From a virus (Duplodnaviria > Caudoviricetes), in the IMG/VR virus record IMGVR_UViG_3300045954_000073, positions 1 through 60,277 of that record: a stretch of DNA of 60,277 nucleotides; one strand, written 5' to 3'. The position numbers and the translations under genes were made by a program. The notes beneath the pieces were generated by a model. It was not told where the DNA came from. It searched no databases and saw only the letters and a list, made by a program, of their open reading frames with translations. Positions 2,734 to 58,717 of this stretch are shown piece after piece; positions within the stretch are counted from its first letter, which is position 1; every line of letters starts with the position of its first letter.

Positions 2734-3526
2734 AACTAAACAACGATTTGTGTCTTACTATTTTAGCAGGCTTCCAATAACCTCCGTAAATAGCTGCATC
2801 ACTTAATCTGTCAATTAAGTGATGATAAAAAATATTTTTATCTGGCTCCCACATCAGACCAGCATGATTAAGTTTGCTGCTGTTGATACGCATCAACAAA
2901 ACATCATGCTTTTGAAGCTTTTCCGTGACTGGAATTTCTATGAATCCCTCGTTAGCAAAATTTTGTTCATAGAAGTTCCAATCAGGGTTTGTATTCCATT
3001 CCCCTATCTCCCCCCTAGGATAATCTTTTAATACAATTCCTATTTCAAAAAATGCATCCCTGATCAAGGTGTAACAGTCCAAAATCCCGTATCTGAACTC
3101 CCTACCCAAAAGCGGAGGACAATAGCCAGAAGGATGCGTTATTTCTAAATTCCCTTGAGGCAAAACCATCAGCACCCAAGGCAAGTTGGAAGCCTCGCAG
3201 GCGACTTTATCAAACTCACTAAATGCGAGCTTGCCATTATAAACACTAGCGTCTGTGTGGCTGTGAAAAATGGCCACCACTTCACAATTTGCACTAGCAT
3301 GGGCATACTCTGAGGCGGATATAGCAAAATCCGTTTTAGGGCTGCTGTGAATGTTTTGGCACGGAACAAACATCAACTCCCCTTGTACGTCAACGAACAG
3401 TCCACAAGCCTCATTTGGGTATTGGTTCCAAGCAAAGTTGATTAGCTGAGTCTTAAAATCTGCAAATTCCATGCTCATGATGAAATCATTATCAGGTAAG
3501 GGTGGTTGGGCGATCGCCTCTGTCAA
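2723..3526 (-). CDS. Tail tip assembly protein K-like (JAB/MPN + NlpC/P60); real start probably 3478 or 3472
   Basis: JAB motif NEACG...FHSHT...SEFD followed by NlpC/P60 motif DCYTL...NHAG...YHH, the lambda gpK architecture. Confidence 0.9.
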   Translation of the reverse strand: MTEAIAQPPLPDNDFIMSMEFADFKTQLINFAWNQYPNEACGLFVDVQGELMFVPCQNIHSSPKTDFAISASEYAHASANCEVVAIFHSHTDASVYNGKLAFSEFDKVACEASNLPWVLMVLPQGNLEITHPSGYCPPLLGREFRYGILDCYTLIRDAFFEIGIVLKDYPRGEIGEWNTNPDWNFYEQNFANEGFIEIPVTEKLQKHDVLLMRINSSKLNHAGLMWEPDKNIFYHHLIDRLSDAAIYGGYWKPAKIVRHKSLFSYEE

Positions 3527-3714
3527 GATTTGAGATTGGTAATCCGAGGTTCAAAAAGGGATTTTATCCCACCACCCCAATGCTCATAAATATCAGTTTG
3601 CACGTTGTTAACGTAATCACTGTGCTTGTTTATCCAGAAACAGGTTTTCCCAATTCTAAATCTTGTCCAGTGTCCGCCTTTTAGTCGGCGATACCATTCA
3701 AAATCGTTTAGCAT
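3523..3714 (-). CDS. Small hypothetical protein between HIP1-containing direct repeats
   Basis: 63-aa ATG ORF; GCGATCGCCTCT at 3510 and 3732. Confidence 0.5.
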   Translation of the reverse strand: MLNDFEWYRRLKGGHWTRFRIGKTCFWINKHSDYVNNVQTDIYEHWGGGIKSLFEPRITNLKS

Positions 3715-3749
3715 TAATTATATTAAGGTATGCGATCGCCTCTTGAATT

Positions 3750-4094
3750 ATGCCGACGATATCATCAGATTATAAGATAAAAATCAATCCTACTGAGAAA
3801 GTTACTTATAGGCGAAATGTGGTCAGCTTTGGTGATGGCTACCCACAGCGTTCAAAGTCTGGCATCAACGCAATTCGCTCAAGCTGGAGCGTGACTTTCA
3901 CTGACTTAAACACAGCAGATAAAATTGCATTGCAATCAATCATTGATACCGCAGCAGGTGTCACAGGAATTGATTGGGTTCCCCCTGGTGAAGTCTAGGC
4001 TAAAAGGTGGCTGATCTCCGAACGTGTCACTAATTGGTTATCAAATGAATTATGGGAAATCTCGTGTACTATGGAATTACTGCATGAGACTTAA
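3750..4094 (+). pseudogene. Minor tail protein M-like pseudogene (paralog of 53010-53354)
   Basis: Same 345-nt length and similar sequence (MPTISSDYK...WEISCTMELLHE) with an in-frame TAG at 3996-3998. Confidence 0.88.
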
Positions 4095-4105
4095 TTAAGT
4101 TAATA

Positions 4106-4335
4106 ATGCCAATACCAAGCACTGAATTATTAACCTTAACCCCAGATGCAATAATTGATTTTTATGTTTTGGACTTGTCGCCATTAAGTACAAATAAGCT
4201 TTATCGTTTCTGTAACTGGAAACAATCAAACGGCACTGATATTGTATTCCAGCGGAAAACGGCTTTCAAGTTGCAAATTGAGATTTGGAAAATATGCTGA
4301 ACTCCCTTGGGGGCTTCCCAGGCGTTGATAGTTAA
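4106..4335 (+). pseudogene. Minor tail protein L-like remnant with internal deletion
   Basis: N-terminus matches 53376 (ELLTLTPDAI...FCNWKQS); after ~4250 another frame gives the C-terminus RLSSCKLRFGKYAELPLGGFPGVDS*; about 450 nt missing. Confidence 0.88.
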
Positions 4336-4355
4336 CAAATAATCAGAAAGAACTT

Positions 4356-4993
4356 ATGAACAATCAAGAATTAGCTACTCTTATCAGCAAATATGCCAAA
4401 ATCAAGTCCTATAATTTTTCCACAAAATTGAGTCATATAGAGATTGTTTACATTGAAGGCATTAACGGGGAAGAAGAGGGATGGACACTCAACAATGATG
4501 CCCCCAACGAATTCAATGACCAACGATTGGTTGCAAATCATGACTCAGATGGAAATTTGCAAATTATTGGCTCTTGGCAGGCGACTACTGAACCAGGTGA
4601 TCGCTACACATTTAATCCCATGAATCCTAAAGGTGCTGCCCGAATTCAGTTTGGTCAGTCGGCACACACGGCAACTCAGAGCCGCACGAAGCATTAATTC
4701 AAGTCGCTCCCGTCCCTGTTTACAGAGATTTCAACAAGGACGGAAAGCGAACTAGCGATAAGATTGATACTGGAATTTTTGGCATTAATCAACATCACGG
4801 ATATGACCTACCTCGCAATAATGTCGCCAACGCTAGTGCGGGGTGCTTGGTTGGAAGAAGACGCGAAGGACACAAAGAGTTTATGCGCCTAGTAAAATCA
4901 GATAGCCGATACAAAACTGACAAGGGATATGTTTTCTACACCACCATTATTCCTGGTGATGACTTGATGGCTCTCACCTTGTCTACTATTTGA
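4356..4993 (+). pseudogene. Frameshifted putative endolysin / cell-wall enzyme
   Basis: WQATTEPG...GAARIQFGQ, then a shift near 4657 to VGTHGNSEPHEALIQV...GINQHHG...SAGCLVGR...TGA 4993; H...SxGC resembles L,D-transpeptidase-like catalytic motifs. Confidence 0.7.
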
Positions 4994-5012
4994 TTACTCA
5001 CAATAACTAAGA

Positions 5013-5038
5013 CCTTCATGATGAATTCATCATGAAGG
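5013..5038. repeat. Dispersed palindrome, perfect 26-bp copy
   Basis: CCTTCATGATGAATTCATCATGAAGG. Confidence 0.95.
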
Positions 5039-5108
5039 CGGAAGAGCAGCCGTACAAAAGCCCTTATCCAAGAAATGATGAGGGATGTTTTGACGTGTAA
5101 ATTAATTG

Positions 5109-5414
5109 CTAAAGCCTGTACCAATCCCTTGCATTTGCTTTTTTTAGACACTGTTCGGTGGGCAAGTAGGCAGATACAATGTCTAAATTTTCTTCCGTTG
5201 CACACTCAAAATACAAGAAACCCTCCACATAAAAATCTAAATGAATCACCCACTCATTAGTCAGTTCAGTATCAATTTTGAAAGCACATCCAGCTTTCAA
5301 TAAAGCCCATGCCTTCCCTACTTGTTGCTGGCATTCAGCACTGTCTCTATTAGTCCATTTCTCTTGGGAGACTATGGCACGCTCACAAAGTGAAATAAGT
5401 CGCTCTCTATACAT
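5109..5414 (-). CDS. Hypothetical phage protein
   Basis: 101-aa ATG ORF on the same strand as the upstream operon. Confidence 0.65.
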   Translation of the reverse strand: MYRERLISLCERAIVSQEKWTNRDSAECQQQVGKAWALLKAGCAFKIDTELTNEWVIHLDFYVEGFLYFECATEENLDIVSAYLPTEQCLKKANARDWYRL

Positions 5415-5460: not shown

Positions 5461-5895
5461 CTAGAGATATAAAAGTTTATATCCCAGTAGCAGACGTTTA
5501 GTAAATTTTTCTGTATTTCTGTTGTTCCACACTGGATTTTTCTTGTCTAAAATCCAGTTTTGGGAATTATGGCAAATGGTAGTATGACATTTTTTGCACA
5601 CTGGAAACCAGTTCACGCCCAAATGATTGCCATCGTATTGCGTATGGTGTAACTCAACGTATTTGTGCTTTAAACAACAGCAGCACAATGAATCGTATCT
5701 TTCTAGCTTTGAATGCGCGATCGCACATTCTCGACTATAGTTGTTGCCATAGCGAACTGAATAATCTAATTGCGGTTTAGTAGATATTCGTGTAGTAGTT
5801 CCACTTGCTTGTCGCTTGGTGCTTGTCCCATCATGTCTTCCCACTTGGTTTTGATTTCGGCGGGAGTGGGTACTCGTCCGAGTTCGTCTGCCCAT
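5461..5895 (-). CDS. HNH endonuclease-like protein (start uncertain, probably downstream)
   Basis: CCCC...ELHH...NWFPVCKKCH Zn/HNH pattern. Confidence 0.7.
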   Translation of the reverse strand: MGRRTRTSTHSRRNQNQVGRHDGTSTKRQASGTTTRISTKPQLDYSVRYGNNYSRECAIAHSKLERYDSLCCCCLKHKYVELHHTQYDGNHLGVNWFPVCKKCHTTICHNSQNWILDKKNPVWNNRNTEKFTKRLLLGYKLLYL

Positions 5896-7454
5896 TTAAC
5901 CAAATCCTCATACCAATCAGTTTGAATATCTTCGGGAGATGCCAAAGGAATAGTTAGGGGAAGCTGGTTGAGTGGTAATAATCCTTTGGGTTTGTTCCCC
6001 TTCTTTTTGAATTGCGTGTAACTGTGGTGCGTGGGGTGTACTGCCACTTGCTCAGGAACAGAACCGCGCACCACACAGCTGTAAGCCGTCTCCTCAATAT
6101 ATTTACGTCGTGGGTCATCCTTCTTCCACTGCAAGGCAATTTGACGAGCAGTGGCACACAACCCAACTAGTAAGTAGTTATTCCTCATCTGCGCTGAGAT
6201 TCCTAAGTCGTCAGCATTTGAAGATTGATTGAGAGCGATCAACGCTATTTTGTATTTCCTGGACTCACTGCCTAGCCTTTTAATGGCGAGTTCCATATTT
6301 TCCTTGTCTTCAAAGTTTTCAAGACAAGCGTTGATTTCGTCAGCAAAAACAATAATTGATGGTTCCATATCTATCTGTTCTTTGGAAAGCGATCGCCGAT
6401 GGTCTAGGAGTCCAAGCAATATGAGCAGCTGCTTTTCTATTAACTTAAAGTCCATAATCGTATGAATGCCCAACTCCTGCCATAAAACATTTACATTGGC
6501 GTGTGGGTCGAGAGCTAAAACTTGAGCAGGTTCATCTTTGGTCAGCCAACCGGCTACCCATGTAGCCACCGAAGTTTTACCACTACCAGAATTACCAGCA
6601 ATGATAATACCGACTGCATCATCCGCTAAATCCCGCCAATCATAAAATTCAATTGCCCCTATCTTGCCAGGACACAAAGCCTCATAGTCAATCTCATCCG
6701 TCAATTCCACAGGGATATGTATTGCGGATAGCCTTGAAATTTCATTCCTGTGCTTGGACTCCTCTGCCTCCAATTTAGCTATTTCCGCTTTCAATTTAGC
6801 TAGTTGTAATTGGCGCTGCATCTCGACCAATTCATTGTGCTTCTCGGCCTGCTCACGCTCAAATTCCAACTCACTCGGAGATTTATCTAAGGCGCGTGCA
6901 ACTTGGTCTTGATGAGTAATCCTATCTTTTATGTATTCAGTTTCAACAGCAACTTTGTGTGAGGCAATTTCGCGCTGCTGCTCGTTGATTAATATCTCTT
7001 GATTTAAGTCCGTTTTTAGTTGCTCGAAGTAAGCTACAAATTCTCTTTTGTAGCGTTGCAAGCGTTTTGATGTTAGCGAAGTGCATCCAGCTAATATTAG
7101 CAAGCTACTCAATGCCCAGTTTTTAGCCTTTGGGTTGGTTGCCGCGATTGTCCGCAGTCGTGTTGCTTTTTCAGAAAGGATAAAAGTCCCTTGTGGTTGA
7201 AATCGCGGGTTAGCTGGTACGTAATCCTCTTGCCTCCAGTATCCTTCAGGTATGATGTATTGTTTGTCCTGGGTGCAGTACTTGGTATTGAAATTATTAA
7301 TCGTTTTAGGCTTAAAACAGAACTCAATTACATCGTATTTTGTACCCGAAAGAGAATAGACTGACAATCCTAATCCCGATATTCCAAGAGCGATCGCCAG
7401 CCCAATAGTAGTTTGATTCTGTTGTTTAAACAGCTTTAACCAATCCACCACCAT
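5766..7454 (-). CDS. Membrane-anchored P-loop ATPase, FtsK/HerA/VirD4-like
   Basis: Two N-terminal hydrophobic helices, coiled coil, Walker A GNSGSGKT, Walker B IIVFADE, SRKYKIALIALNQS motif. Confidence 0.8.
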   Translation of the reverse strand: MVVDWLKLFKQQNQTTIGLAIALGISGLGLSVYSLSGTKYDVIEFCFKPKTINNFNTKYCTQDKQYIIPEGYWRQEDYVPANPRFQPQGTFILSEKATRLRTIAATNPKAKNWALSSLLILAGCTSLTSKRLQRYKREFVAYFEQLKTDLNQEILINEQQREIASHKVAVETEYIKDRITHQDQVARALDKSPSELEFEREQAEKHNELVEMQRQLQLAKLKAEIAKLEAEESKHRNEISRLSAIHIPVELTDEIDYEALCPGKIGAIEFYDWRDLADDAVGIIIAGNSGSGKTSVATWVAGWLTKDEPAQVLALDPHANVNVLWQELGIHTIMDFKLIEKQLLILLGLLDHRRSLSKEQIDMEPSIIVFADEINACLENFEDKENMELAIKRLGSESRKYKIALIALNQSSNADDLGISAQMRNNYLLVGLCATARQIALQWKKDDPRRKYIEETAYSCVVRGSVPEQVAVHPTHHSYTQFKKKGNKPKGLLPLNQLPLTIPLASPEDIQTDWYEDLVKWADELGRVPTPAEIKTKWEDMMGQAPSDKQVELLHEYLLNRN

Positions 7455-11231: not shown

Positions 11232-11255
11232 CCTCATGATGAAATCCTCAACAGG
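11232..11255. repeat. Dispersed palindrome, degenerate copy
   Basis: CCTCATGATGAAATCCTCAACAGG. Confidence 0.7.
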
Positions 11256-12736: not shown

Positions 12737-12920
12737 AGGCTGACTCCACCAATTTACTTCAATAAAGTATAGCTAATTTATAATTGATATGGCAGGTAAT
12801 TTTTATTTTTAAATTAATTAAAAGAGTTTATTGCTGATAAAATTATCATAATTAAAATCCATAATCATGATTGAAAAAGAGATTAGCAGCGAATAATGCA
12901 ACCACCCCTCTAAATTTTTG

Positions 12921-12941
12921 CTCATGATGAATTCATCATGA
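12921..12941. repeat. Dispersed palindrome copy
   Basis: CTCATGATGAATTCATCATGA. Confidence 0.95.
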
Positions 12942-13170
12942 ATTGTGCAGTATGATTTGCTAACTTGCTAAAGCTTGTACTTACGTAAACACGCTTTTGA
13001 ATTTAATTAAATTGCTAGAAAGGTATCATAAGCAACTTTTTAACGCGTCTTTATTATAGATTTTTATACTTCTTTCAGAGAAAATACTAGGGAAGAAGTT
13101 GTTTAAAAATGATACAAATGAAATAACTAAATAACTGTGCAACATTTACGCGCAGATTTGCACCGATTCT

Positions 13171-15000: not shown

Positions 15001-15333
15001 ATGGAGCAAATCTTAATTACTCCAGAGGCGCTCAAGCAAGCAATCCGCGAGGTGCTGGCTGAGTTCATGCCGAATTCGGCATTAGCAACTCATAACGCAA
15101 GACAGGAATGGTTCGACACTGACCCTGCTTATTCCATGATTGGAGTCCGGTCAGCCCGGCGACTTAGAGCCAAAGTGCTGAATGGCACTTTGCGCCAAGG
15201 CATTGACTGGCGCGATGACCGGGAGCCAGGGGCGGAAAGGCCCTCATATAGGTTTCACGTAGAAAATTGCAAGAAGCGTCTTGCAGTCCCACCCGAAAAA
15301 CGTAAATTATCTCGCAAAGCGCAAGCGCAATAG
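15001..15333 (+). CDS. Excisionase-like / winged-helix DNA-binding protein
   Basis: GGAGG SD before ATG 15001; EWFDT..AY..IG...SARRLR...LRQGIDW pattern. Confidence 0.55.
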   Translation: MEQILITPEALKQAIREVLAEFMPNSALATHNARQEWFDTDPAYSMIGVRSARRLRAKVLNGTLRQGIDWRDDREPGAERPSYRFHVENCKKRLAVPPEKRKLSRKAQAQ

Positions 15334-15334
15334 T

Positions 15335-16795
15335 ATGAAGACAGATTTTATAAACTGGAAAATTGAAGACATCAAAATTCCTGATGGCATGGTGTCCAAC
15401 AAGGTTTTGGTGCAACAGAATGTTGAAGCATTCAACGAAGATGGTGCAGTTGAGGAAATATCTGTAGATGCAGATGGCTATCTTATAAAGGGAATAAATG
15501 GGGTTGAAGCACTCAAGGAGCTTGGACAATCCGAAGTTTACGCCCTCACCACATTGCCCGACACCCCTGCAATACCAGAGTTGCAGTATATCCCCATTGA
15601 AAATCTGCAACTTCATCCTATAAACAGCAGTATTTATGGAAGAGGCGAGAATCTTGAGAAACTAGAAATAAGCCTTAGGGAAGTAGGATGCCTTAATCCG
15701 CTAACCGTGGTGCCGGCAGAAGCTTCTCACTTCAAAGACAAGCTTCTCAAAGTAGAAGGATTTGTGCCAGTAGACGGGAATTCTAGACTTGCTGCAGGTG
15801 GCAATGTTGGATTAAAAGGTTTCCTAGCTCGTGTAGTGACTTTTAATTCGAGTGCAGAGGAGCTGGAGGCTTTGCTATCAGCAAACGTATATCGACAGAA
15901 GTCCATCATCCAAATAGTACGAGAGTTAGAGTACTGGGAAGAAATCGAGCAGGCAAAAGCCGAGGAACGCCGGGGGAAGGCGGGAAAGGGGCTGGGTTCA
16001 GTTCGGGATATCGTAGCCCGGCGAGCCAATTGGGCAGGTTCCACATACGCCCATGCTAAAAAGGCAGTTGCCTATATGGACAAATTTGCGAACGCCCCCC
16101 AAGGATCGCATGAATACAAACTTTATTGGAACCTTAGAAAGAAGTTAGAACAGCCTAGAGGCGTCGAAGGTGCTTATAAGCTAATCGAGCCTTTTGTCAA
16201 AGAGGAGTTTCCACAGGAAACTAAAATTAAAATCTACGACTCCGTAAAAATCATCAACGGGGAATATGAAGGCAAGCAAGGCGTAGTTCGGGTTTGCCTT
16301 GACGATGGCTCGTTTCTCGTTAACCTTGATGGTACAGACCCCAAGTCCCAGCCAAAATTCAAGGCAACCGAATTGGAGCTAATTCCAATTGAGAAAATAG
16401 AACCTTCCACATCACAGACCAAACAGTCAGAACCGCCCACCTCTGTAGAGCAAGAACTATCTAAAAAACAAGAGGAACTTGGATTAGGGAAGAGCAAAGA
16501 ACAAGTCCTGCCATCAAAGAAAAAACCTGGTATTCAACCAGAAGAAGAGATCCAGTCGCAAGTCTTGCAAGCTAATGGCAGCAAGTTCAAGGATGGACAA
16601 ACTGAGGCAGCTTTTAGGGCAGTTCTTCAGCTGAACCCCAGACAAATATTTGAACTATTTTCAGCTCTCAATCAAGATATGTCTGTCGAACAACTAGAAG
16701 CTTTATGGCGGGCATTTAAATCCAATTTAGAGCATAAGGTAGATGATCGCAGCCTTGAAGCTTGGTCAAACATTATTTTGCAAAAGGCGGCTTAA
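15335..16795 (+). CDS. ParB/Srx-like N-terminal domain protein with HTH and KOW-like motif
   Basis: IPIENLQLHPIN...LNPLTV...VDGNSRL; HTH-like RDIVARRANWAGST; VKIINGEYEGKQGVV; ATG 15335 follows the upstream stop. Confidence 0.75.
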   Translation: MKTDFINWKIEDIKIPDGMVSNKVLVQQNVEAFNEDGAVEEISVDADGYLIKGINGVEALKELGQSEVYALTTLPDTPAIPELQYIPIENLQLHPINSSIYGRGENLEKLEISLREVGCLNPLTVVPAEASHFKDKLLKVEGFVPVDGNSRLAAGGNVGLKGFLARVVTFNSSAEELEALLSANVYRQKSIIQIVRELEYWEEIEQAKAEERRGKAGKGLGSVRDIVARRANWAGSTYAHAKKAVAYMDKFANAPQGSHEYKLYWNLRKKLEQPRGVEGAYKLIEPFVKEEFPQETKIKIYDSVKIINGEYEGKQGVVRVCLDDGSFLVNLDGTDPKSQPKFKATELELIPIEKIEPSTSQTKQSEPPTSVEQELSKKQEELGLGKSKEQVLPSKKKPGIQPEEEIQSQVLQANGSKFKDGQTEAAFRAVLQLNPRQIFELFSALNQDMSVEQLEALWRAFKSNLEHKVDDRSLEAWSNIILQKAA

Positions 16796-20841: not shown

Positions 20842-23800
20842 ATGTATGATTTTCAAGTAGGCGATCGCTTTGCAATTCCGCAATCAAAACAGGTTTGTGA
20901 AATTTTAGAAATTAAGACCAGTCGCAAGTCCACACCTTATCGTGTGCGATGGGGTAAATCTAAAATTGAAAGATGGCTCGGATTATCAACGCTCCAGAAG
21001 CTCAAATACTTGCCTTCTGACGAAATCATCAGCAAGCCAAATAGTAAATCCAACTCATTAAATTTGGGTAAAGTCTTTAATGGTGCTGCACGCCTTGCTA
21101 CAGACGAAGATATCAAAATTCTTTCCCCCGGTGACTGGATAAAAGCTAAGGAAGAAAACTACTGCTACTGTTTTAAGCGTTGGGATGGCAAAACTCCGGT
21201 TGGTGAGTGGAAGGGTAAAGAGTTTCCGTTCCACCGTAATCTATTGATGGTTTGCACATCTATTGATGGTGTGTTGATAGAAAAGTTTTGCAATGATAAT
21301 ACCCTTGCTGCTCCTACAAAAATTATAAAAGCAATTACCCTGCACCAACCTTGGGCGCAGCTAGTTGGCATTCACAAGCACTATGAGACTAGGAGTTGGA
21401 GTACTGACTACAGAGGTAAACTTGCTATCCATGCTGCACAAAAGCCGAAGCGATGGAACGACCACAAAAAAATTATTAGTGAATTCAGTGATCTGTTAGC
21501 AACGAGGGACTGCGAATACTCTGCAATAGTTGCAATCGCCAATTTAACAGACTGTATCAAAATGACTGAAGAATTTATCAGTCAGCAATCAGAAACAGAA
21601 ATAAGATGCGGACTGTGGGAGATTGGGCGCTATGCCTGGAAGTTGGAGAATGTAAAGATACTTTCTGAGCCAATACCTGCTAAAGGCTTTCATAAGCTCT
21701 GGGACATTGAATTATCTATTTTCGTTGTCGAAGAAAGTGAAACTTTTGTTAACAAAGATGCTCAATCTTCTGGACTAAACTCCGAAGGATGTGTAGAGCA
21801 AGTTTTACAATATTGCGTCCCCGGTGACGTAATTGGTCTTGGTGGGTGGTGTATTCTGGGCCAGCAGCCAAGTTACTTAACTACATTCTGGGAAACCATT
21901 AATAATGAATCCCAATCTCAGGAATCTGCACTAACTTTTCAACCAAACCTAACCGTCGCCATCTGTGAATTTTTGGGCAAGTGTGATCGACCTGCTCAAT
22001 CAATAAGGGATATAGCCAAAGCAGTCGGTTGCGATGTTGATAATGTCCACGATGCTCTTGAGGTGGGAAGGCAACAGGGGTTATTTAAACCTGCTTTTAC
22101 AATTGAGCCTGATTTTTGGTTCTTAAACCGCCAAGAATCTGCTGAAGCTGAAACCGACAAATTGACCATAGACAAACTTTCAGTAGGTGATCGCGTTTGC
22201 TACGATATCAACTCCTCTACCCGTAGAGGTTTAGTGATTACAGCAGGAGAAAGAGTCGGTGTTAAGTGGGATAACTGGGTAACTCTTGCCTATTCTGCTG
22301 ACGACATAGCCAATATGGTTCAATATATGAACTTTCGCTGTGAAGATATTGATCCAGAATCTGAAGAATTTTTACAAGATTTGGATGCTGATCAGTATCG
22401 ATGGAACGAAAAAGATTTTGGTGACGTTCCTCGCAAGGCAGACGGCGACCAATTAACCATTTTTTTTGATGACGCAGAAGAACCGCCGCTACCTGAAGAT
22501 TTTCCAGATATCCAATCTTTTGATAAAGCCTGGGACGTGTGGGACAAGCAAAACCAAGCTTATTTGACATCGGTTGAAAAGGAGTGGCGAGTTTCAGGAA
22601 TCGTCAATAAGCAACAACGACGAGACGGAACAGTTGTTAGTGTTGGACGATCAGGATTTTCAATTGAGTGGGATGGGTGGATCAAAATTCCTTACTCATT
22701 TTCACAGATTCAGGAATTGAAGCTATTAAAAATTCAGAAAACCGAGGAAAAAGAAGAATGCTTACAACAGGACACCTATTCTGTGGCGGTGGCGGCGACA
22801 CAGAAGGAGCAATTAAAGCTGGATATTGCCCTCTCTGGGGAATTGATAACAACTCCCAAGCCTGCGCCGTCTTCCGAAAGCGATTCCCAAAAACCGACCT
22901 GTATGAATACGACGTTAGAGAACTCTCTGACGACTTCATTCTCGGTTTGCCCATCCCCGACTGCCTCATTTGGGGAAGCCCTTGTCCAGACTTTTCCACT
23001 GCTGGCAAACGAGCCGGCATTAATGGATCTCGTGGACAGTTGTTTTTTGAAGGAATCCGATTTCTTCGCCTCCAGCGTCCACCATCATTCCTGTTTGAAA
23101 ACGTTGAGGGAATCCTTAGCAGTGACCAAGCAACTGCCTTCCCCCTCATCATCGAAACGTTTGCAGAACTGGGGTATGTGGGGACTTGGCAAAAACTTAA
23201 TGCCAACCGACACGTCCCTCAAAACCGAGAACGAATTTATTGTGTGGGCTATCACATCGGATGTAAGAGCAACGCAGCCTAAGCTTTACAAAAAATCTTT
23301 GCACGAGGTTCTCAACGGTTCACCCGTAAACTCGTTTACGGGTGAGGATATTGACGAAGCTCCTACAATTTGCGGCGCAGGGTGGCAGCATCGATCGCCT
23401 CAAAATAGAGATAAATCAGGTGCTTCCTTTGCAATCATTTTTCGCGCAGCTGATGGCGATCACGTCTACTCTGCCGATTTATGTAAAGATGCCCCAACTT
23501 TAAGAAGCTTGGCAAATACGGGTAAACACCAATCAGGATCTGGTGCTTACAAAGTCCGCCAGATGGGTAGCGATGCAACCATAGAGCGCCCAATCACCCC
23601 CACTGAGGCAGAGATGCTGATGGGATGGGAAGTCGGCAGTACAGCAATTGGTATTGATGCCGAGGGGCATGAAATATCAATTAGTGATACTCAACGCATA
23701 AAAATGCTGGGCAACGGCATTGTCCCAGCGGAAATAACAAATATTTTGGAGCGTCTAAAGCCGATTCTTAAGCGCAAATTAGAATCGGAAATTTCGCCAA

Positions 23801-24500: not shown

Positions 24501-25397
24501 ATGAGATACGCTTCTAGCCTGCTTTATGGTGGTGCGCTGGTAGATTCTCAAGGTGCTACCTACCAGGACTATTCCAAACTGCTTCTGCGTTGCCCATTCT
24601 GCGGTGAACCAGTATTTTTATCCGCTGCTAAATATCGTACAGAACACGCCCGTTTAGCACCTAAATCTAAGAAAATTGTTTTGGTCAAAGGTCACGACGT
24701 TTCCGCCAGCTTTGCTCATTTTCCTGGTATTGCATCGGAGAAATGCGAATTTAAAGCGTTAGGAATCAAGCAATCCGACATTAAAAAGAGTATTGCTAGG
24801 GGTAAAAATCAAAGACTCAAATTTTTCCAAAATCGCTTCTGGAAAATTTTACAAGGGGAACGAGACGTTAAGGTTAGCACTGTTTATCAGCTTGTTAAAA
24901 AAGCTAACTTATTCCTGTCCGATGGCTATCTAACTGAAATAGCAACGGAACTTACCGAAGATGTTGCCAGAAGATTTAAAACCTATGAAGGCATGAAAGA
25001 TTTTGCCTCTGGACTGCTACAAGAAGCCGCTCGGCGTCCTTGCGAGTTAATCGTAGCTAAAGACGAAAAAGAGATGGATGAAGCTACTTCTTGGCTGTTG
25101 TCTCTAGAGCTTGATCTGCATTTGCAGATCGTCGGTGAAGCAATTGAATTTTTGAAGACTAAATCAGCCACTAGGCTGCTTCATGAATTTATTGATTTAG
25201 CGGTTGCCCACAATATCAGTATTAAAGGTGAATCAGAATTACTGAATTTGGCAAAGCTTGATAAATCAATGCCCCTGCTGAAAAAAGATTACCAGAATTT
25301 AGTGAGTACGATTATTGCCAGCATGGTTGCTATGTTAGCCGGCACTCAATGGGCGATCACCATTCATGAGGCAAATTCAGAATCCAAAGCCTCATGA
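24501..25397 (+). CDS. Zn-ribbon protein (CoiA-like N-terminus) at the end of the early operon
   Basis: LRCPFCGEPVFL...FAHF...C. Confidence 0.6.
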   Translation: MRYASSLLYGGALVDSQGATYQDYSKLLLRCPFCGEPVFLSAAKYRTEHARLAPKSKKIVLVKGHDVSASFAHFPGIASEKCEFKALGIKQSDIKKSIARGKNQRLKFFQNRFWKILQGERDVKVSTVYQLVKKANLFLSDGYLTEIATELTEDVARRFKTYEGMKDFASGLLQEAARRPCELIVAKDEKEMDEATSWLLSLELDLHLQIVGEAIEFLKTKSATRLLHEFIDLAVAHNISIKGESELLNLAKLDKSMPLLKKDYQNLVSTIIASMVAMLAGTQWAITIHEANSESKAS

Positions 25398-25412
25398 CGA
25401 ATTCATCATGAG
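25391..25412. repeat. Dispersed palindrome copy upstream of terS
   Basis: CTCATGACGAATTCATCATGAG. Confidence 0.9.
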
Positions 25413-28012: not shown

Positions 28013-28038
28013 ACCTCATGATGAAATCCTCATGAGGT
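28013..28038. repeat. Dispersed palindrome copy upstream of the portal
   Basis: ACCTCATGATGAAATCCTCATGAGGT. Confidence 0.9.
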
Positions 28039-30624: not shown

Positions 30625-31041
30625 ATGTCAAAACAAGAAGAGATAAAATCAACTTTGCGCCATTTCAAATTTATTGCTGGGGATAATATATCTCGAACGG
30701 AGTTGCCACTTATTGTTAGATTTATTGACATTCGATCGCGCAAAATTGAACTTTTGGGGATAAGAGAATATCACGCTGTTATTAGCCCAAAATACAGAAA
30801 GTCGGAGATTATAGAGTTTTTCTGTAATCTTAAGCCATTTGAAAGGCAAAAATTGTTGATAAACTGCCCAGATATGATTGTGGCGTTACCTAGTGACTGC
30901 AAACTTCTTGGGGTAGCAAGACCTGCCGCGATCGCCAAGCGTTCTGGTAATTTCTCAGGCAAGACAGTGGAATATGATGTTTTCTCTATTGTCTCAGTTC
31001 TTGAACTTACGGCAAGCTTGAATATACTATCCACCTCATGA
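30625..31041 (+). CDS. Hypothetical protein (moron)
   Basis: 138-aa ORF; its stop lies within a palindrome copy. Confidence 0.55.
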   Translation: MSKQEEIKSTLRHFKFIAGDNISRTELPLIVRFIDIRSRKIELLGIREYHAVISPKYRKSEIIEFFCNLKPFERQKLLINCPDMIVALPSDCKLLGVARPAAIAKRSGNFSGKTVEYDVFSIVSVLELTASLNILSTS

Positions 31042-31057
31042 GGAAATCGTCAGGATG
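31034..31057. repeat. Dispersed palindrome, degenerate copy
   Basis: CCTCATGAGGAAATCGTCAGGATG. Confidence 0.55.
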
Positions 31058-31864: not shown

Positions 31865-31889
31865 GCTTCATGATGAAATCAGCAGAAGC
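31865..31889. repeat. Dispersed palindrome, degenerate copy
   Basis: GCTTCATGATGAAATCAGCAGAAGC. Confidence 0.65.
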
Positions 31890-42020: not shown

Positions 42021-42046
42021 TCCTCATGATGAATTCATCATGAGGA
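42021..42046. repeat. Dispersed palindrome, perfect 26-bp copy upstream of the tape measure gene
   Basis: TCCTCATGATGAATTCATCATGAGGA. Confidence 0.95.
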
Positions 42047-52962: not shown

Positions 52963-52984
52963 CTCATGATGAATTCATCATCAG
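52963..52984. repeat. Dispersed palindrome copy after the tape measure gene
   Basis: CTCATGATGAATTCATCATCAG. Confidence 0.9.
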
Positions 52985-54648: not shown

Positions 54649-54650
54649 TA

Positions 54651-57600
54651 ATGACTAATAAACAAAGAATAATAGTACGTGGATCTGGGGGCGGCGGGGG
54701 CGGTTCTAGTGGCAACACCCCAAGGGAAGCACCCAATAACTTAAGATCGCGGGCAGATGCGGTCATTTTGCTTTTGTTGGGTGAAGGTGAAATAGAGGGT
54801 TTTTCCACAGCAGATCCCTTGCAAAGTATTTATTTAGATGCCACTCCCATAAAAAATAGCGATGGCAGCCTAAATTTCCAGAATGTAGCCATTGATTATC
54901 GCACAGGTACTCAATGGCAGGGTTATATCTCCGGCATTTCTAGTGCCGTTCGTAACGAGATAGCTGTAGGCACTCAAATCAAACAAGTTAATGGGCCCAC
55001 CACTCGTACCATCGTCAATCCAGATGCTAATGCCGTGATTGTGCGAGTCATGATTCCTACGCTTTTAGATCAAGACGACAAAGGCAATATCAACGAGTCG
55101 TCGGTCAGTTTCCGCATTGATTTATCGACTCAGGGGGGGAATTTTGAGCCTATCTACAATGAAACTATTAGCGGCAAAACTTCTGGGAACTACGAGCGAC
55201 AATATAGAATTAATTTAAGTACAAGTGGCCCTTGGGATATTCGCATCACTAGGCTTACGCCAGATAGTGATCGCACCACACTCCAAAATTCTCTATTTTG
55301 GCAGTCGCTAACTGAGGTGATTGATTTGAAATTGCGCTATCCCAATAGCGCATTACTTGGCGTTAGGGTAAGCGCCGAGCAATTTAATAGTATCCCGAAA
55401 GTCTCAGTCAAACTGAAACAGATAAGAATTCTTGTGCCTCACAATTACAATCCACTGAGCAGACAATATTCAGGGATTTTTGACGGCACTTTGATTAGGC
55501 AATACAGCAATAATCCAGCATGGATTTTTTACGATTTAATCACTAATTCTCGCTATGGTTGCGGTAAATATATTGATGAATCGCTAGTGGACAAATTTGA
55601 TTTATACGCTATTGGGCAATATTGCGATGAACTTGTTCCCGATGGAAAGGGCGGGATAGAACCGCGTTTTACTTGCAATGTTTACATCCAAAATCAAGAT
55701 GACGCTTTTAGGATTTTAGAATCCCTTTCTGCTTGTTTTCGAGGCATGATATATGAGCGCAATGCAACTATCACAGCTGTGCAAGACAAGCCATCAAATC
55801 CGAACAGAATATACACTCGCGCTAATGTAGTTTGCGAGTACGATGATGATGGACGATTAACGGCTCCACCATTTGTATACAGTGGCAGTAGCTTAGATAC
55901 TCGCGCAACTGTGGCCCTAGTTAGTTGGAGCGATCCAGCTAATAATTACGAGACTGCTGTAGAGACAGTAGAGGACAAAGAAGGACTAGCAAAATTTGGT
56001 TACAATTCAATAGAGTTAGCGGCTTTTGGATGCACTTCTAGAGGACAAGCTTACAGGCTAGGCAAATGGACTTTGCTAAGTCAACGCTATCTAACTCAAA
56101 CAATTACTTTTAAAGTGGGTGCTGAAGGGTTGCTCGTCAATCCCGGAGAAGTTTTTAAAGTGATGGATTCTCTAAAAAGCGTTTCTCGTCGCGGGGGCAG
56201 AATTAAAGCTGCGGGCATCAATTTTATAGAACTAGATGACGCAGTAATAATTGAGCCTGGAAAAAGTTACAATCTTTCAACAGTTAAAAGTAACGGGATT
56301 ATTGAAACTAAAATTGTTTTAAATTCTAGCGGAATACATACAATTTTGTATGTTAATAATTGGTCGGAGACACCACGACATATTTGGATTTTAGAATCCA
56401 GTGATTTACAGGCTCAACTCTTCAGGTGTACCGCAGTTTCAGAAATTGGCGAACATTTATATGAAATTGTGGGAGTTGAGTATAATCCTAGCATTTATGA
56501 TTTAGTAGAGAAATCAGGATTCTTGCTTGAAGAACCAGATGTTAGCGGTTTCCCAGATTTACTGATACCGCCTAGTTCGCCATCTGCACTAAAAATTCAA
56601 GAATCCTTGTATCAAACCATTGGAAGCGGAGGGGTGAAAACCAAAGCCAGTATTACCTGGCAGGCATCAACTTCAATACTTATCAAAGAATATCAACTAG
56701 AATATCGCAGAGATGGACAATCTCAATACACAGTGATTGGCGGACTTCAAGATTTATCAACTACACTATACGATGTAGCACCAGGAATATATTTTTTTAG
56801 AGTAAAAGCTATTAATAATTATGGGACATCTAGCAGTTACACGCAACAAGTCCAAGAAATTTATGGACTATCTTACCCACCGTCTGATGTCCAAAATTTT
56901 TATGTAAATATTACAGATTCATATGCTAATTTCACATGGAATGAATCTCCTGATTTAGATGTTCGAGTAGGAGGTAAATTTAGAGTTAAATATACTAGCA
57001 AAAAACAAAACACTTCTTGGGCTGACGGCATAGAAATTGCCGCAGTTGCTGGGTACTCAAATTACCTCAGATTTCCAGCACTTGAAGGAACATTTCTAAT
57101 TAAAGCTGTGGACTCCGAAGGGAACCAAAGTAGGAATGTGGCGCAAGTCGTACTAGACAACATTTCACGAACTATAAACTACAACGCAGTAGAAACATCT
57201 ATTCAGCATCCTAATTTTAATGGGATAAAAACAAATACTATTGTTGTAGACAATCAACTCAAGCTAGCCTCTATTGATTATTTTGATTTTCAGACCGGAC
57301 TATTTGACGATATGCCGGGATTATTTGATGATGTTGCCGGATACTTTGATTCAACCGAAGGCGATTTTGATTTTCAGCCTGGAATGTTTGACGATCTGGG
57401 TATTTTATACGCAATATACCCATCAGGATACTATGATTTTGATGCGCCAATAGACTTAGGAGATATTTTTGACTCTCGTTGCACTGCCAATTTCTCTGGA
57501 AGGGCAATTGATGAATCAAGATTTTTTGATAGAGTAGGAGGGCTTTTTGACAATTATTTGGGTTTTTTTGATGGAGAAGATATTGATAATGCTTCCGCCA

Positions 57601-57998
57601 TTCTTCAAATATCAGTTTCACAAGATGGAATAAATTATAATGAATATCAAAATTTTGTCACAGGAAATTACAAAGGCAGAGCTTTTAAATTCAGGGTATT
57701 TTTGCAAAGCAGTGAAGTTAAAAATAACTTTGCAATTAGCGAATTATCTGTTACTGTCGATATGCCAGATACAATTTTGTCCGGCAATACACAAACATCC
57801 AATTTAATTGATACGATAGTAAGCTTTAGTAAAAAATTCAGAGAAGTACCAGAAATAGGACTGACACTTCAAGATGGACTATCCGGTGATTATATTAAAC
57901 TAGAGTCTAAAACCACATCAGGTTTTGTGATTAATGCTAGAAACAATTTAAATAATAGAATTATAAGAACAATATCTTGGATAGCTAAAGGTTATTAA
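54651..57998 (+). CDS. Tail tip / host specificity protein J-like with FN3 domains
   Basis: LGEGEIEG, YPNSAL, SNNPAW, EPRFTCN, AFGCTSRGQA. Confidence 0.93.
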   Translation: MTNKQRIIVRGSGGGGGGSSGNTPREAPNNLRSRADAVILLLLGEGEIEGFSTADPLQSIYLDATPIKNSDGSLNFQNVAIDYRTGTQWQGYISGISSAVRNEIAVGTQIKQVNGPTTRTIVNPDANAVIVRVMIPTLLDQDDKGNINESSVSFRIDLSTQGGNFEPIYNETISGKTSGNYERQYRINLSTSGPWDIRITRLTPDSDRTTLQNSLFWQSLTEVIDLKLRYPNSALLGVRVSAEQFNSIPKVSVKLKQIRILVPHNYNPLSRQYSGIFDGTLIRQYSNNPAWIFYDLITNSRYGCGKYIDESLVDKFDLYAIGQYCDELVPDGKGGIEPRFTCNVYIQNQDDAFRILESLSACFRGMIYERNATITAVQDKPSNPNRIYTRANVVCEYDDDGRLTAPPFVYSGSSLDTRATVALVSWSDPANNYETAVETVEDKEGLAKFGYNSIELAAFGCTSRGQAYRLGKWTLLSQRYLTQTITFKVGAEGLLVNPGEVFKVMDSLKSVSRRGGRIKAAGINFIELDDAVIIEPGKSYNLSTVKSNGIIETKIVLNSSGIHTILYVNNWSETPRHIWILESSDLQAQLFRCTAVSEIGEHLYEIVGVEYNPSIYDLVEKSGFLLEEPDVSGFPDLLIPPSSPSALKIQESLYQTIGSGGVKTKASITWQASTSILIKEYQLEYRRDGQSQYTVIGGLQDLSTTLYDVAPGIYFFRVKAINNYGTSSSYTQQVQEIYGLSYPPSDVQNFYVNITDSYANFTWNESPDLDVRVGGKFRVKYTSKKQNTSWADGIEIAAVAGYSNYLRFPALEGTFLIKAVDSEGNQSRNVAQVVLDNISRTINYNAVETSIQHPNFNGIKTNTIVVDNQLKLASIDYFDFQTGLFDDMPGLFDDVAGYFDSTEGDFDFQPGMFDDLGILYAIYPSGYYDFDAPIDLGDIFDSRCTANFSGRAIDESRFFDRVGGLFDNYLGFFDGEDIDNASAILQISVSQDGINYNEYQNFVTGNYKGRAFKFRVFLQSSEVKNNFAISELSVTVDMPDTILSGNTQTSNLIDTIVSFSKKFREVPEIGLTLQDGLSGDYIKLESKTTSGFVINARNNLNNRIIRTISWIAKGY

Positions 57999-57999
57999 T

Positions 58000-58653
58000 A
58001 TGCCACAACATGATTTCAATGTAGCTAATCAAAACTTCCCTTCCTTCAGGGAAGATTTAAATAAAGCCTTAGAAGCAATGGCGACTCAAAGCTCAGGAAA
58101 CAATGAGCCACTTGTGACCTACCCATATCAAATTTGGGTGGATACCCAAAATGGATTGATCAAAATGCGTAACGCCGCCAACAATGCTTGGCTGACGACT
58201 GGAAGAACCAATCAACCATTTTGGGGATTAAAAGCTAGTGACGTTGGCGCAACTTTTGTTGCTCCTTATTTTTATGAATTAGGCACTAGCATCCCGCTAA
58301 TTCGGGATACTTCAGGAAGCTGGACAGACCTGATCAATCAAAACATTACGATTAACAGTGGATGTAGATTTGTGTCTACTCTGACGGATGCCGTTTTCCA
58401 GGTTCCGTCAGGCTCTTCAAACAATACTTTTTTCAACCTGCAATCGCTAATTGGAAATTCTGTAAGGAATAGCTACCAAGGTGCGTCTGGCTTTGGTAGC
58501 TATAATGATTTTTGCAGCGCGTTTGTGCTTAATTATGCAGATGTTTTAAGCACAGGAACGCTTAACATCAAGATTCGTGCCAATTATGGCGCGAGTGCCG
58601 CTCAGGTAGTAAATTGCGTGACTGCGAGAGTTTTGGCCTTGGCAGTTTATTGA
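58000..58653 (+). CDS. Putative tail fibre / receptor-binding protein
   Basis: MPQHDFNVANQ...FREDLN.AL...W.DT...KMRNAAN.AW N-terminus, following J. Confidence 0.65.
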   Translation: MPQHDFNVANQNFPSFREDLNKALEAMATQSSGNNEPLVTYPYQIWVDTQNGLIKMRNAANNAWLTTGRTNQPFWGLKASDVGATFVAPYFYELGTSIPLIRDTSGSWTDLINQNITINSGCRFVSTLTDAVFQVPSGSSNNTFFNLQSLIGNSVRNSYQGASGFGSYNDFCSAFVLNYADVLSTGTLNIKIRANYGASAAQVVNCVTARVLALAVY

Positions 58654-58687
58654 ATTGGTGGAAAAATTTGTAGGTTGCTTTGCTATT

Positions 58688-58717
58688 TCACCTACTGATA
58701 AATTCATCAGTAGGTGA
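58688..58717. repeat. Palindrome variant at the end of the late operon
   Basis: TCACCTACTGATAAATTCATCAGTAGGTGA. Confidence 0.7.

What the first reader, a model, noticed from the sequence alone, without database searches (positions are those of the whole stretch)
3474..58717. Prophage-wide palindrome CTCATGATGAAWTCATCATGAG marking module boundaries
Seen: copies at 3474, 5013, 11232, 12921, 25391, 28013, 31034, 31865, 42021, 52963 and a variant at 58688. They are intergenic or at gene ends (the 3474 copy overlaps the probable K start), sitting before K, terS, portal and tape measure, and after lysin, tape measure and fibre. Outer arms differ between copies yet stay complementary (CCT/AGG, TCC/GGA, ACC/GGT), which suggests selection for dyad symmetry. 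Established analogies: KorB OB operators of RK2, parS sites, and L5 stoperators. Inference: a genome-wide silencing, partition or late-activation network read by a phage protein (ParB-like 15335, or XRE 13929/31981), or sites of module recombination.
Basis: partly seen in the sequence, partly recalled or inferred. Interest (0 to 1): 0.85.

Follow-up and report, generated by a model that had tools for sequence, protein, structure and literature searches.

The report
Phage-wide palindromes tied to a ParB-like protein
A cyanobacterial prophage carries about a dozen copies of one 22-bp palindrome between its gene modules, and related phages that share an unusual ParB-like DNA-binding protein each carry their own version, which suggests a genome-wide control network like KorB on plasmid RK2.

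Summary
The 22-mer palindrome has 8 sites within 3 mismatches against 0 expected. Nearly all are intergenic.

The exact motif was found in no other record. The main result is comparative. All 4 IMG/VR records that encode a relative of window protein 15335-16795 carry their own private family of 10-20 dispersed perfect palindromes. All five families share the frame TG-N3-AA|TT-N3-CA. Five full-length phage records related through terminase lack the protein and have no such family.

The protein has a ParB N-terminal (CTPase) fold, an HTH DNA-binding domain and a KOW domain. Motif similarity tracks protein similarity.

Best reading (about 0.6): the palindromes are the cognate sites of this ParB/KorB-like protein and punctuate transcription units. 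Binding and function are inferred. Rivals are RNA hairpins or terminators, a host repeat, and recombination sites. I rate it a new variant of a known kind.

The parts
3474..3495 (.). Palindrome copy, B-type (GAAATC centre, right arm decayed). It overlaps the likely ATG of the K-like gene 2723-3478(-).
5013..5038 (.). Perfect 26-bp palindrome copy between convergent ORFs 4356-4697(+) and 5109-5414(-).
   Evidence: RNA fold -16.6 kcal/mol, z -6.5
11232..11255 (.). B-type copy between divergent genes 10530-10877(-) and 11343-11615(+).
12835..12848 (.). Core-only candidate site (2 mismatches in the 14-bp core), in the same 434-nt intergenic region as 12921.
12921..12942 (.). A-type copy in the large divergent intergenic region at the left border of the immunity/early region.
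15001..15333 (+). Small basic protein (about 110 aa, no known family) immediately upstream of the ParB-like gene. The pair is conserved in G006, G007 and G009; the G008 record starts inside the ParB-like gene, so it cannot be seen there.
15335..16795 (+). Protein of 486 aa with a ParB N-terminal (CTPase fold) domain, an HTH DNA-binding domain and a KOW domain. It is the proposed reader of the palindromes.
21018..21031 (.). Core-only candidate site (1 mismatch) inside ORF 20842-23886.
21567..21580 (.). Core-only candidate site (2 mismatches) inside ORF 20842-23886.
25391..25412 (.). A-type copy. It supplies the TGA stop of gene 24501-25397 and lies 78 nt before terS.
28013..28038 (.). B-type copy 30 nt before the portal gene.
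31035..31056 (.). Decayed B-type copy. It supplies the TGA stop of gene 30625-31041, and its GAGGA variant lies 12 nt before the ATG at 31055.
31865..31889 (.). Decayed B-type copy between ORF 31495-31842(-) and the XRE gene 31981-32319(-).
42021..42046 (.). Perfect 26-bp copy 30 nt before the 3626-aa tape measure gene.
52963..52984 (.). A-type copy 8 nt after the tape measure stop codon, before the inverted M gene.
58688..58717 (.). Variant copy (1 mismatch in the 14-bp core, different outer arms, a 30-bp dyad) after gene 58000-58653.

Best explanation
The palindromes are the cognate DNA sites of a phage-encoded ParB/KorB/Noc-type protein, window 15335-16795. This protein has a ParB N-terminal CTPase fold, an HTH DNA-binding domain and a KOW domain, and it may act with the small basic protein encoded just upstream (15001-15333). 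A dimer would read the 14-bp core TGATGAA|TTCATCA. The roughly 11-14 sites lie at the borders of transcription units: around the accessory cassettes, at both ends of the early region, before terS, portal and tape measure, and after tape measure and the tail-tip genes. Together they would form a genome-wide control network with the same site density as KorB's operators on RK2. SHOWN: the repeat family and its intergenic placement; the domain make-up of the protein; the strict co-occurrence of the protein lineage with private palindrome families on a shared frame; and motif similarity that tracks protein similarity. INFERRED: that the protein binds the sites; that it loads there as a nucleotide-dependent clamp; and that the outcome is transcriptional punctuation, meaning roadblock or silencing, or late activation through the KOW domain.
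For: (1) The family is real and non-random, and 10 of 11 copies are non-coding. (2) A profile of 40 homologues of 15335-16795 hits the Spo0J/ParB/Noc N-domains at E about 1e-15. 34 of the 40 homologues carry PF02195. The HMM alignment places GNSR opposite the ParB GERR box and SNxxR(E/Q)K opposite ENLQRE. The AlphaFold model (pLDDT 83) aligns over 209-265 columns with ParB, KorB and Noc structures that contain the N-terminal and DNA-binding domains (E 4e-6 to 7e-5). It also aligns with Spt5/NusG KOW domains. (3) search for related loci with 10 close homologues found 4 viral records. None has the window's motif. Each has its own family: G006 12 sites, G007 20, G008 11 and G009 10 at up to 2 mismatches, with about 0 expected in shuffles. 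(4) All five families share T-G-N3-A-A|T-T-N3-C-A; the variable triplets are ATG, GTA, AAA, AAA and GAA. (5) An unbiased statistic, the highest copy number of any perfect palindromic 12-mer, gives 14, 12, 8, 4 and 4 in the five genomes with the protein. It gives at most 2 in 201 other session sequences (2.28 Mb) and at most 2 in five full-length terminase relatives G001-G005 (424 kb). Those five lack the protein (0 of 5 real matches, one 12-bit hit). (6) The G007 and G008 proteins are 82% identical and share one motif. G009 is 47-48% identical to them and has a similar motif. The window and G006 proteins are 35-45% identical to the others and have different motifs. (7) The window's structural genes are G001-like while its early region is shared with G006-G009. 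Among window ORFs, only 15281-16795 is found in 4 of 4 palindrome genomes and not in G001. The small upstream ORF is found in 3 of 4, and the fourth record is cut there. (8) The giant tape measure gene is bracketed by sites in 4 of 4 genomes that hold one. (9) Some copies in the relatives lie deep inside genes, which fits a DNA site better than a terminator. (10) 5 of 11 window copies keep the left half-site but do not fold better than shuffles as RNA, so sequence is conserved more than structure. Precedent, from passages read: KorB loads at OB sites and represses at a distance with KorA (PMC11790492), and SPBRE sites are bound by MrpR (PMC10516654).
Against: No binding was or could be tested here. 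The five genomes are only about four independent lineages, found through one protein, so the association may reflect shared ancestry. The window protein itself has no Pfam hit on its own, and only its homologues do. Several distant homologues are fused to DNA methylases, so the wider family is not all site-specific binders. The GERR box is reduced to GNSR, and the glutamate of ENLQRE is absent, so CTP chemistry is uncertain. No site lies next to the gene's own promoter region. In G001 the equivalent junctions before portal, before tape measure and after the tail genes hold ordinary hairpin terminators, which favours an RNA-level role for the window's hairpins. Host chromosomes could not be scanned, so a host-wide repeat is not excluded for the relatives.
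Confidence: 0.6

Rival explanations
1. The palindromes act at the RNA level. They would be intercistronic hairpins serving as terminators, pause sites, RNase processing sites or 3' stabilisers that punctuate the operons, and the ParB-like protein would be irrelevant.
For: Six of 11 copies form hairpins more stable than shuffles: 5 have z below -3.5 and one has z -2.0. A perfect palindrome gives the same hairpin on both transcripts, and two copies sit between convergent genes (5015 and 52963). In the closest structural relative, G001, the junctions before portal, before tape measure and after the tail genes hold classical A-tract/stem/T-tract hairpins of unrelated sequence. The consensus scan flags 2 copies as terminator-like on the minus strand (25413-25390, 5039-5012). 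The outer arms show modest covariation.
Against: Five of 11 copies (3474, 11233, 31035, 31867, 52963) fold no better than shuffles yet keep the left-arm sequence. Right-arm changes mostly break pairs rather than giving G-U pairs. There is no U-tract after most copies. Ordinary terminators, as in G001, differ from each other in sequence, whereas here 18-20 nt are kept. Relatives hold copies deep inside long genes. This rival does not explain the co-occurrence with the ParB-like lineage or the shared TG-N3-AATT-N3-CA frame.
Confidence: 0.17
2. The palindromes are a host-chromosome dispersed repeat (REP/REPIN- or SDR-like small mobile palindromes of cyanobacteria) that has colonised a resident prophage.
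For: The host is a cyanobacterium: 32 HIP1 octamers in 60 kb, and cyanobacteria are known for small dispersed repeats (recalled). The region is old enough to hold decayed genes. The rest of the 230,946-bp host contig could not be read.
Against: The exact 20-mer, present 3 times in the window, occurs once in 596 Gb of species-representative genomes, in an unrelated Oscillospiraceae MAG. It occurs only as 11 unrelated single hits in JGI metagenome contigs. G006's 20-mer occurs 11 times in G006 and otherwise only once each in 2 unrelated contigs among 2.9 million viral contigs. G006 is classed as 'linear', not as a provirus. No transposase of the IS200/RAYT type was seen among the ORFs scanned. 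When the source run's 23.6 million contigs were laid on 41000-60277, the pieces shown at the palindromes came only from the prophage's own two contigs. That is weak evidence, because contigs show presence rather than absence and 4 pieces were not shown.
Confidence: 0.08
3. The palindromes are recombination sites at which modules are exchanged, inverted or inserted, either by site-specific recombination or as palindrome-provoked breaks.
For: Synteny blocks between the window and G001 (terS-terL, portal, head-tail, tape measure) are in a different order, and all 6 copies between 22.7 and 58.2 kb fall in the gaps between blocks. The copy at 52963 adjoins an M gene that is inverted relative to G001 and to the decayed copy at 3750. 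Copies bracket an accessory ATPase cassette and a decayed tail cassette.
Against: There is no tyrosine or serine recombinase in the window. There is no second copy on the other side of the inverted M gene. G001 shows the same scale of rearrangement without any palindrome family. The source run's contig spans 41000-60277 without differences or alternative joints at the sites. Module borders are where both rearrangements and regulatory sites are tolerated, so the coincidence is expected anyway.
Confidence: 0.07
4. The palindromes are operators of another regulator: one of the XRE/CI-like repressors, as in L5 stoperators or the phiC31 conserved inverted repeats, or a host transcription factor.
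For: Multi-copy intergenic operators read by immunity repressors are well known (passages in PMC9283540 and PMC10516654). The window has a CI-like gene (13929-14660) and a second XRE gene (31981-32319) with a copy 93 nt downstream.
Against: There is no copy in the CI/Cro-like divergent region 14661-14765. XRE 31981-32319 has a 52%-identical homologue in G001, which lacks palindromes, and none in G006-G009. The CI-like protein has no homologue in any of them.
Confidence: 0.06

Closest known systems
KorB and its OB operators on plasmid RK2 (with KorA/TrbA clamp-lockers)
   Same: Both have a ParB-fold protein with an HTH domain and about a dozen copies of one short palindrome spread over a mobile element of about 60 kb (copy number and size for RK2 are recalled). 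The sites lie at or far from promoters. A small DNA-binding partner is encoded beside it. The model aligns with KorB structures 8qa9 and 8qa8. The clamp-and-lock mechanism was read in passages of PMC11790492, and TrbA appeared in the listing.
   Different: This element is an integrated prophage of a cyanobacterium with no IncC/ParA partner. The protein has an extra KOW domain and an extra N-terminal domain. The conserved site is longer (22-26 bp around a 14-bp core). The GERR box is reduced. No interaction with the small partner has been shown.
Noc and its NBS sites; chromosomal ParB and parS
   Same: All are ParB family proteins with N-terminal and HTH domains. The cognate sites are 14-16-bp perfect palindromes in many dispersed copies, and specificity evolves by a few base changes on a common frame (recalled). 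Noc and ParB structures are among the best fold matches.
   Different: This protein is phage-encoded in the early operon, has no membrane-targeting or ParA-binding context, carries a KOW domain, and has sites placed at operon borders.
L5-type stoperators; SPbeta SPBRE/MrpR; phiC31 conserved inverted repeats; N15 dispersed sopC sites
   Same: In each, one short motif is repeated 10-30 times in intergenic spaces across a temperate phage genome and is read by one phage protein. Stoperators were read in passages of PMC9283540 and SPBRE in passages of PMC10516654. phiC31 and N15 are recalled and were not read here.
   Different: Stoperators are asymmetric 13-mers read by a monomeric immunity repressor, with orientation tied to transcription. 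MrpR has a recombinase fold. Here the sites are perfect dyads, and the associated protein is ParB-like and sits in the lytic early operon, not at the immunity locus.
VirB/virS (a ParB-like CTP switch that activates genes)
   Same: It is a ParB-fold protein used for transcription control rather than segregation (abstract seen in the listing, PMC10770331).
   Different: VirB counters H-NS at a few plasmid promoters. No such silencer is known here.

Membership tests
ParB/KorB/Noc family (ParB-CTPase fold plus HTH, with a cognate palindrome) | ParB N-terminal domain (PF02195 fold) | tested here: met
   The profile of homologues hits Spo0J/ParB/Noc at E about 1e-15 and 6e-12. 34 of 40 homologues carry PF02195. 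Foldseek probability is 1.0. The window protein alone gives no Pfam hit.
ParB/KorB/Noc family (ParB-CTPase fold plus HTH, with a cognate palindrome) | HTH DNA-binding domain directly after the N-terminal domain | tested here: met
   The model aligns over 209-265 columns with ParB, KorB and Noc chains that contain the N-terminal and DNA-binding domains. An HTH-like segment, RDIVAxRxGxGSGxTYEHA, is conserved. This rests on a predicted model.
ParB/KorB/Noc family (ParB-CTPase fold plus HTH, with a cognate palindrome) | Nucleotide-binding boxes (GERRxRA, ENLQRE) | tested here: inconclusive
   The aligned residues are G-N-S-R (GHRR or GNRR in relatives) and S-N-x-x-R-(E/Q)-K. G, R, N and R are kept, while the second arginine and the glutamate are not.
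ParB/KorB/Noc family (ParB-CTPase fold plus HTH, with a cognate palindrome) | Specific binding to a 13-16-bp palindrome; CTP-dependent clamp | not testable with these tools
   There is only indirect support: co-occurrence and co-variation of protein and motif.
Canonical ParABS partition system | Adjacent ParA-type ATPase | tested here: not met
   PF13614 and PF01656 give a real hit only in G006, 11 kb from its ParB-like gene. The window has only a 17-bit sub-threshold hit in ORF 5766-7454.
L5-type stoperators | Asymmetric site whose orientation follows transcription, read by the immunity repressor | tested here: not met
   The sites are dyad-symmetric. There is no copy at the CI/Cro-like switch, and the CI-like protein is not shared with other palindrome genomes.
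Intrinsic terminators | G+C-rich stem followed by a U-tract | tested here: not met
   Only 2 of 11 copies are flagged, both on the minus strand. 5 of 11 fold no better than shuffles. G001's true terminators look different.
REP/REPIN or SDR-type host repeats | Hundreds of copies across the host chromosome, with an associated RAYT/IS200-type transposase | tested here: inconclusive
   The exact 20-mer is absent from representative genomes apart from one chance hit, and the metagenome scan gave no multi-copy records. The host contig itself was not readable.
Invertase or shufflon crossover sites | A site-specific recombinase encoded with the sites | tested here: not met
   PF00589 and PF00239 give no match at E up to 0.1 in the window. 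The record is estimated to be 65% complete.

The most novel reading that the evidence does not exclude
The protein is a new kind of DNA-loaded transcription factor: a ParB-type nucleotide-gated sliding clamp fused to a NusG/Spt5-like KOW domain. It would be made from the early lytic operon and load at the palindromes at the head of each late module. It would then travel with, or wait for, RNA polymerase and use its KOW domain to carry the polymerase through the hairpin or pause encoded by the same palindrome. This would be a distributed, clamp-based antitermination or late-activation system. It would be functionally analogous to the T4 gp45 sliding-clamp 'mobile enhancer' or to lambda Q, but built from a ParB fold. 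Phage-specific site sequences would act as private address codes that diverge as immunity specificities do.
Probability: 0.12. Interest if true: 0.9.

Novelty: new variant of a known kind. Interest (0 to 1): 0.66.

Why it matters
ParB-fold CTP switches have recently been recognised as more than segregation proteins; KorB and VirB are examples. A survey of the fold reports many phage and prophage members of unknown role, and a term search of that paper found no mention of a KOW fusion (PMC12704722). This finding supplies a testable case. A lineage of cyanobacterial temperate phages pairs a ParB-HTH-KOW protein with 10-20 private palindromes on one common frame, placed at operon borders.

This gives a natural specificity series: five proteins and four site variants, ready for swap experiments. 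It also provides a model for genome-wide control of an integrated prophage by a clamp-type protein, and a possible physical link between a DNA clamp and transcription elongation.

It also explains a conspicuous repeat family that would otherwise be annotated as terminators or ignored. I found none of the four motifs in print in a relevant context (one unrelated paper). No paper describing such a system surfaced. Subscription journals and supplements were not searched.

Tried and rejected
Near-identical relatives: megablast of 1-24000 and 24000-45000 against cultured phages gave no match. tblastn of the ParB-like protein against the same collection gave no match.

Exact-motif scans found nothing beyond chance. 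The 20-mer gave 0 in viral contigs, one unrelated hit in genome contigs and 11 unrelated single hits in metagenome contigs.

Terminase relatives: 80 loci were fetched. None has the motif. Of the 37 I screened for recurrent 8-bp-arm palindromes, none has a family of 3 or more. An AAGGAAAT word in G001 turned out not to be a palindrome family.

I looked for homology between the decayed left cassette (4300-5060) and the tape measure 3' end; nothing was significant.

Promoter scans gave fewer sigma-70-like sites than shuffles and no consistent link to the copies. Rfam gave 0 matches and there are no tRNAs.

The ESM Atlas look-ups of the two genes flanking the 12921 copy were uninformative. NCBIfam gave nothing useful for ten candidate regulators. 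Pfam gave nothing for the small partner apart from an AT-hook-like tail in G009 at E 0.019.

The bias in which half-site is conserved (left-only 5, right-only 1) is not significant (my count), so I dropped it as evidence of direction.

No RNA holder was listed for the stretch, so expression could not be examined. Complex prediction of the small partner with residues 1-360 of the ParB-like protein returned 'no answer'. This is reported here only and is not used as evidence.

The search of earlier findings by sequence returned nothing.

Supplementary files of the papers were not opened. Those of PMC12704722 may list this domain architecture.

Full report
THE OBSERVATION. The window is a complete IMG/VR provirus record of 60,277 bp. 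It was cut from a 230,946-bp contig. The host is a cyanobacterium: the window holds 32 HIP1 octamers, and a flavin amine-oxidase gene, likely host, lies at 1-1608.

The palindrome CTCATGATGAAWTCATCATGAG has 8 distinct sites within 3 mismatches, against none in 100 shuffles. At the level of the 14-bp core TGATGAAWTCATCA (up to 2 mismatches) there are 14 sites, against about one expected.

There are two sub-types. In five copies the centre is GAATTC and the dyad is near-perfect (5015, 12921, 25391, 42023, 52963). In five the centre is GAAATC and the right arm is decayed (3474, 11233, 28015, 31035, 31867). The copy at 58692 is a variant with different outer arms.

Ten of 11 centres are non-coding in a genome that is about 89% coding. 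The claimed compensatory outer arms are only modestly supported.

THE SETTING. The genes are those of a lambda-like siphovirus. TerS, TerL, portal, protease and capsid genes are present, as are tail tube, M, L, I and J genes and a 3626-aa tape measure ORF. The early region holds a CI-like repressor, a small Cro/CopG-like gene, a D12 methylase and others.

The left 5 kb holds a decayed second tail cassette: M with a TAG stop, an internally deleted L and the only K gene. The functional M gene is inverted next to copy 52963.

There is no integrase or invertase in the window. A contig from the probable source run spans 41000-60277 with no differences, so the arrangement is not peculiar to one assembler. 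It is the same data, however, and so not independent.

THE MOTIF ELSEWHERE. The exact motif is essentially private. It gave no hit in 2.9 million viral contigs. It gave one chance hit in 596 Gb of representative genomes, and only unrelated single hits in JGI metagenomes and for a shorter core.

Relatives by terminase (80 loci) lack the motif. Those I screened (37 loci) also lack any analogous family. The closest structural relative, G001 (82 kb, TerL 70% identical), has no family either. At module borders it has ordinary A-tract/stem/T-tract terminators, each of different sequence.

THE DECISIVE COMPARISON. An exhaustive HMMER search found 200 homologues.

- A profile of 40 of them matches the ParB/Spo0J/Noc N-domain at E about 1e-15.
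- 34 of the 40 carry PF02195.
- The alignment puts GNSR opposite GERR and SNxxR(E/Q)K opposite ENLQRE, and shows a Spt5-type KOW segment.
- The AlphaFold model (pLDDT 83) aligns over 209-265 columns with ParB, KorB and Noc structures containing the N-terminal and HTH domains, and with KOW domains.

Searching viral contigs with the 10 closest homologues returned four records, G006-G009, all rich in HIP1. None has the window's motif. Each has its own family of dispersed perfect palindromes (shuffles give about 0):

- G006: 12 copies of TTCTGGTAAATTTACCAGAA.
- G007: 20 copies of CTGAAAAATTTTTCAG at up to 2 mismatches.
- G008: 11 copies of the same core as G007.
- G009: 10 copies of ATGGAAAATTTTCCAT.

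Centred on the dyad, all five families read T-G-N3-A-A|T-T-N3-C-A and differ in the N3 triplet and the outer arms.

I also applied a statistic chosen without reference to any motif: the highest copy number of any perfect palindromic 12-mer, with HIP1 excluded. It is 14, 12, 8, 4 and 4 in the five genomes. It is also never above 2 in the full records G001-G005 (424 kb), which lack the protein.

WHICH GENE GOES WITH THE SITES. The window is a mosaic. Its virion genes match G001, and its early genes match G006-G009. Only ORF 15281-16795 is present in all four palindrome genomes and absent from G001. The small ORF just upstream (14977-15333) is present in three, and the fourth record begins inside the ParB-like gene. 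DUF6527 (41564-41905) is present in three.

The XRE gene 31981-32319 is shared only with palindrome-free G001, and the CI-like gene is shared with none. So the palindromes in the G001-like structural module of the window travel with the early-region gene pair, not with the structural genes.

The G007 and G008 proteins are 82% identical and use the same site. G009 is 47-48% identical to them and uses a near variant. The window and G006 proteins are 35-45% identical to the others and use different triplets. Sites bracket the giant tape measure gene in all four genomes that have one. Some copies in the relatives lie deep inside genes.

MECHANISM. The best-supported reading is that the palindromes are cognate sites of this ParB/KorB-like protein. 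The core size (14 bp), the perfect dyad and the copy density of about one per 5 kb match what is known for KorB on RK2. There, a CTP-gated clamp loads at OB sites and, locked by the small KorA protein, represses promoters at a distance (passages of PMC11790492).

The gene sits in the rightward early operon behind the Cro-like gene in both the window and G006. I therefore infer that it acts during lytic development or establishment rather than as the immunity repressor. Whether it blocks read-through between modules, silences them, or activates late units through its KOW domain is inference only. There is no adjacent ParA, so it is not a canonical partition system.

RIVALS. An RNA-hairpin role is the strongest rival. 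Six copies fold well, and G001 has true terminators at equivalent junctions. However, five copies keep the sequence without the fold, U-tracts are lacking, and this rival does not explain the lineage association.

A host repeat is unlikely on the collection scans but is not excluded, because the host contig was unreadable.

Recombination sites have circumstantial support. All six copies between 22.7 and 58.2 kb lie between synteny blocks, and copy 52963 adjoins the inverted M gene. There is no recombinase, however, and no variant joints.

COMPARISON AND NOVELTY. Multi-copy phage operators are known: stoperators (PMC9283540), SPBRE/MrpR (PMC10516654), and phiC31 and N15 (both recalled). ParB-type global regulators are known too (KorB).

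Four things appear new:

- The ParB-HTH-KOW architecture. No KOW fusion is mentioned in the main text of the fold survey PMC12704722; its supplements were not seen.
- Its occurrence in integrated cyanobacterial prophages.
- The series of private site specificities on one frame.
- The placement of sites at operon borders.

The motifs were not found in print in any relevant paper.

VERDICT. This is a real, non-random feature. It is a new variant of a known kind, with interest 0.66.

Noticed in passing
window 19533-19716: About eight tandem 23-bp units (TGACCGTAGACCCAACGGTCAAA alternating with CAACCGCTGACCCAACGGTCAAA) lie inside ORF 19209-20282. They look like iterons of a lambda-O-type origin. 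The source run's contig appears to begin inside this array; I computed this from record coordinates.
   Followed up: no
window 52985-53375 and 2723-4335: The functional minor-tail gene M (53010-53354) is on the minus strand between the tape measure gene and L. In G001 and in the decayed left-hand copy, M and L are co-directional. K is missing between L and I; the only K gene (intact, 267 aa) lies about 50 kb away, beside a TAG-interrupted M and an internally deleted L.
   Followed up: partly
window 35593-36018: The minus-strand gene inside the plus-strand head-tail operon has a 41%-identical homologue in G001 on the same relative strand (G001 29331-29798, minus, among plus-strand neighbours). 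The 'inverted in place' state is therefore shared with G001 and probably old.
   Followed up: partly
G001 (L100-L104): The closest structural relative appears to be a circularly closed assembly of about 81.5 kb. The J gene runs across the record ends, and about 540 bp are repeated at both ends. Its module order is scrambled relative to the window: portal comes before terminase, and K and I come before tape measure, while M-L-J lies elsewhere on the other strand.
   Followed up: partly
G007 48526, G008 466, G009 52978: In three relatives a copy of the phage's own palindrome (2 mismatches) lies inside the ParB-like gene itself. This is reminiscent of parS within spo0J (recalled). No such copy was seen in the window's gene.
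   Followed up: no
L229:13756-14028 (G009), window 15001-15333: The small partner protein ends in a basic tail. In G009 the tail reads as an AT-hook (RGRP, Pfam E 0.019), which could contact the A/T centre of the palindromes.
   Followed up: no
window 15335-15580 (protein residues 1-80): The ParB-like protein begins with an extra, well-modelled domain of about 80 residues. Its conserved segment, DG..I.GINALEAAK.LGQ, resembles a second, degenerate ParB-N motif.
   Followed up: no
window 5461-10877: A minus-strand cassette of unknown proteins is bracketed by palindrome copies 5015 and 11233. It includes a 562-aa P-loop protein with weak STAND and CbiA hits. Parts of the cassette have homologues in G006 and G008 but not in G001.
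   Followed up: partly
window 31035-31057: The decayed copy at 31035 has ATGAGGAA in place of ATGATGAA. This creates a GAGGA Shine-Dalgarno-like element 12 nt before the ATG of ORF 31055-31234, and the copy also provides the stop codon of the preceding gene.
   Followed up: no
whole window and G001-G009: The HIP1 octamer GCGATCGC is abundant in all these phage records: 32 in the window, and 12-73 in the others, including the non-integrated G001.
   Followed up: no
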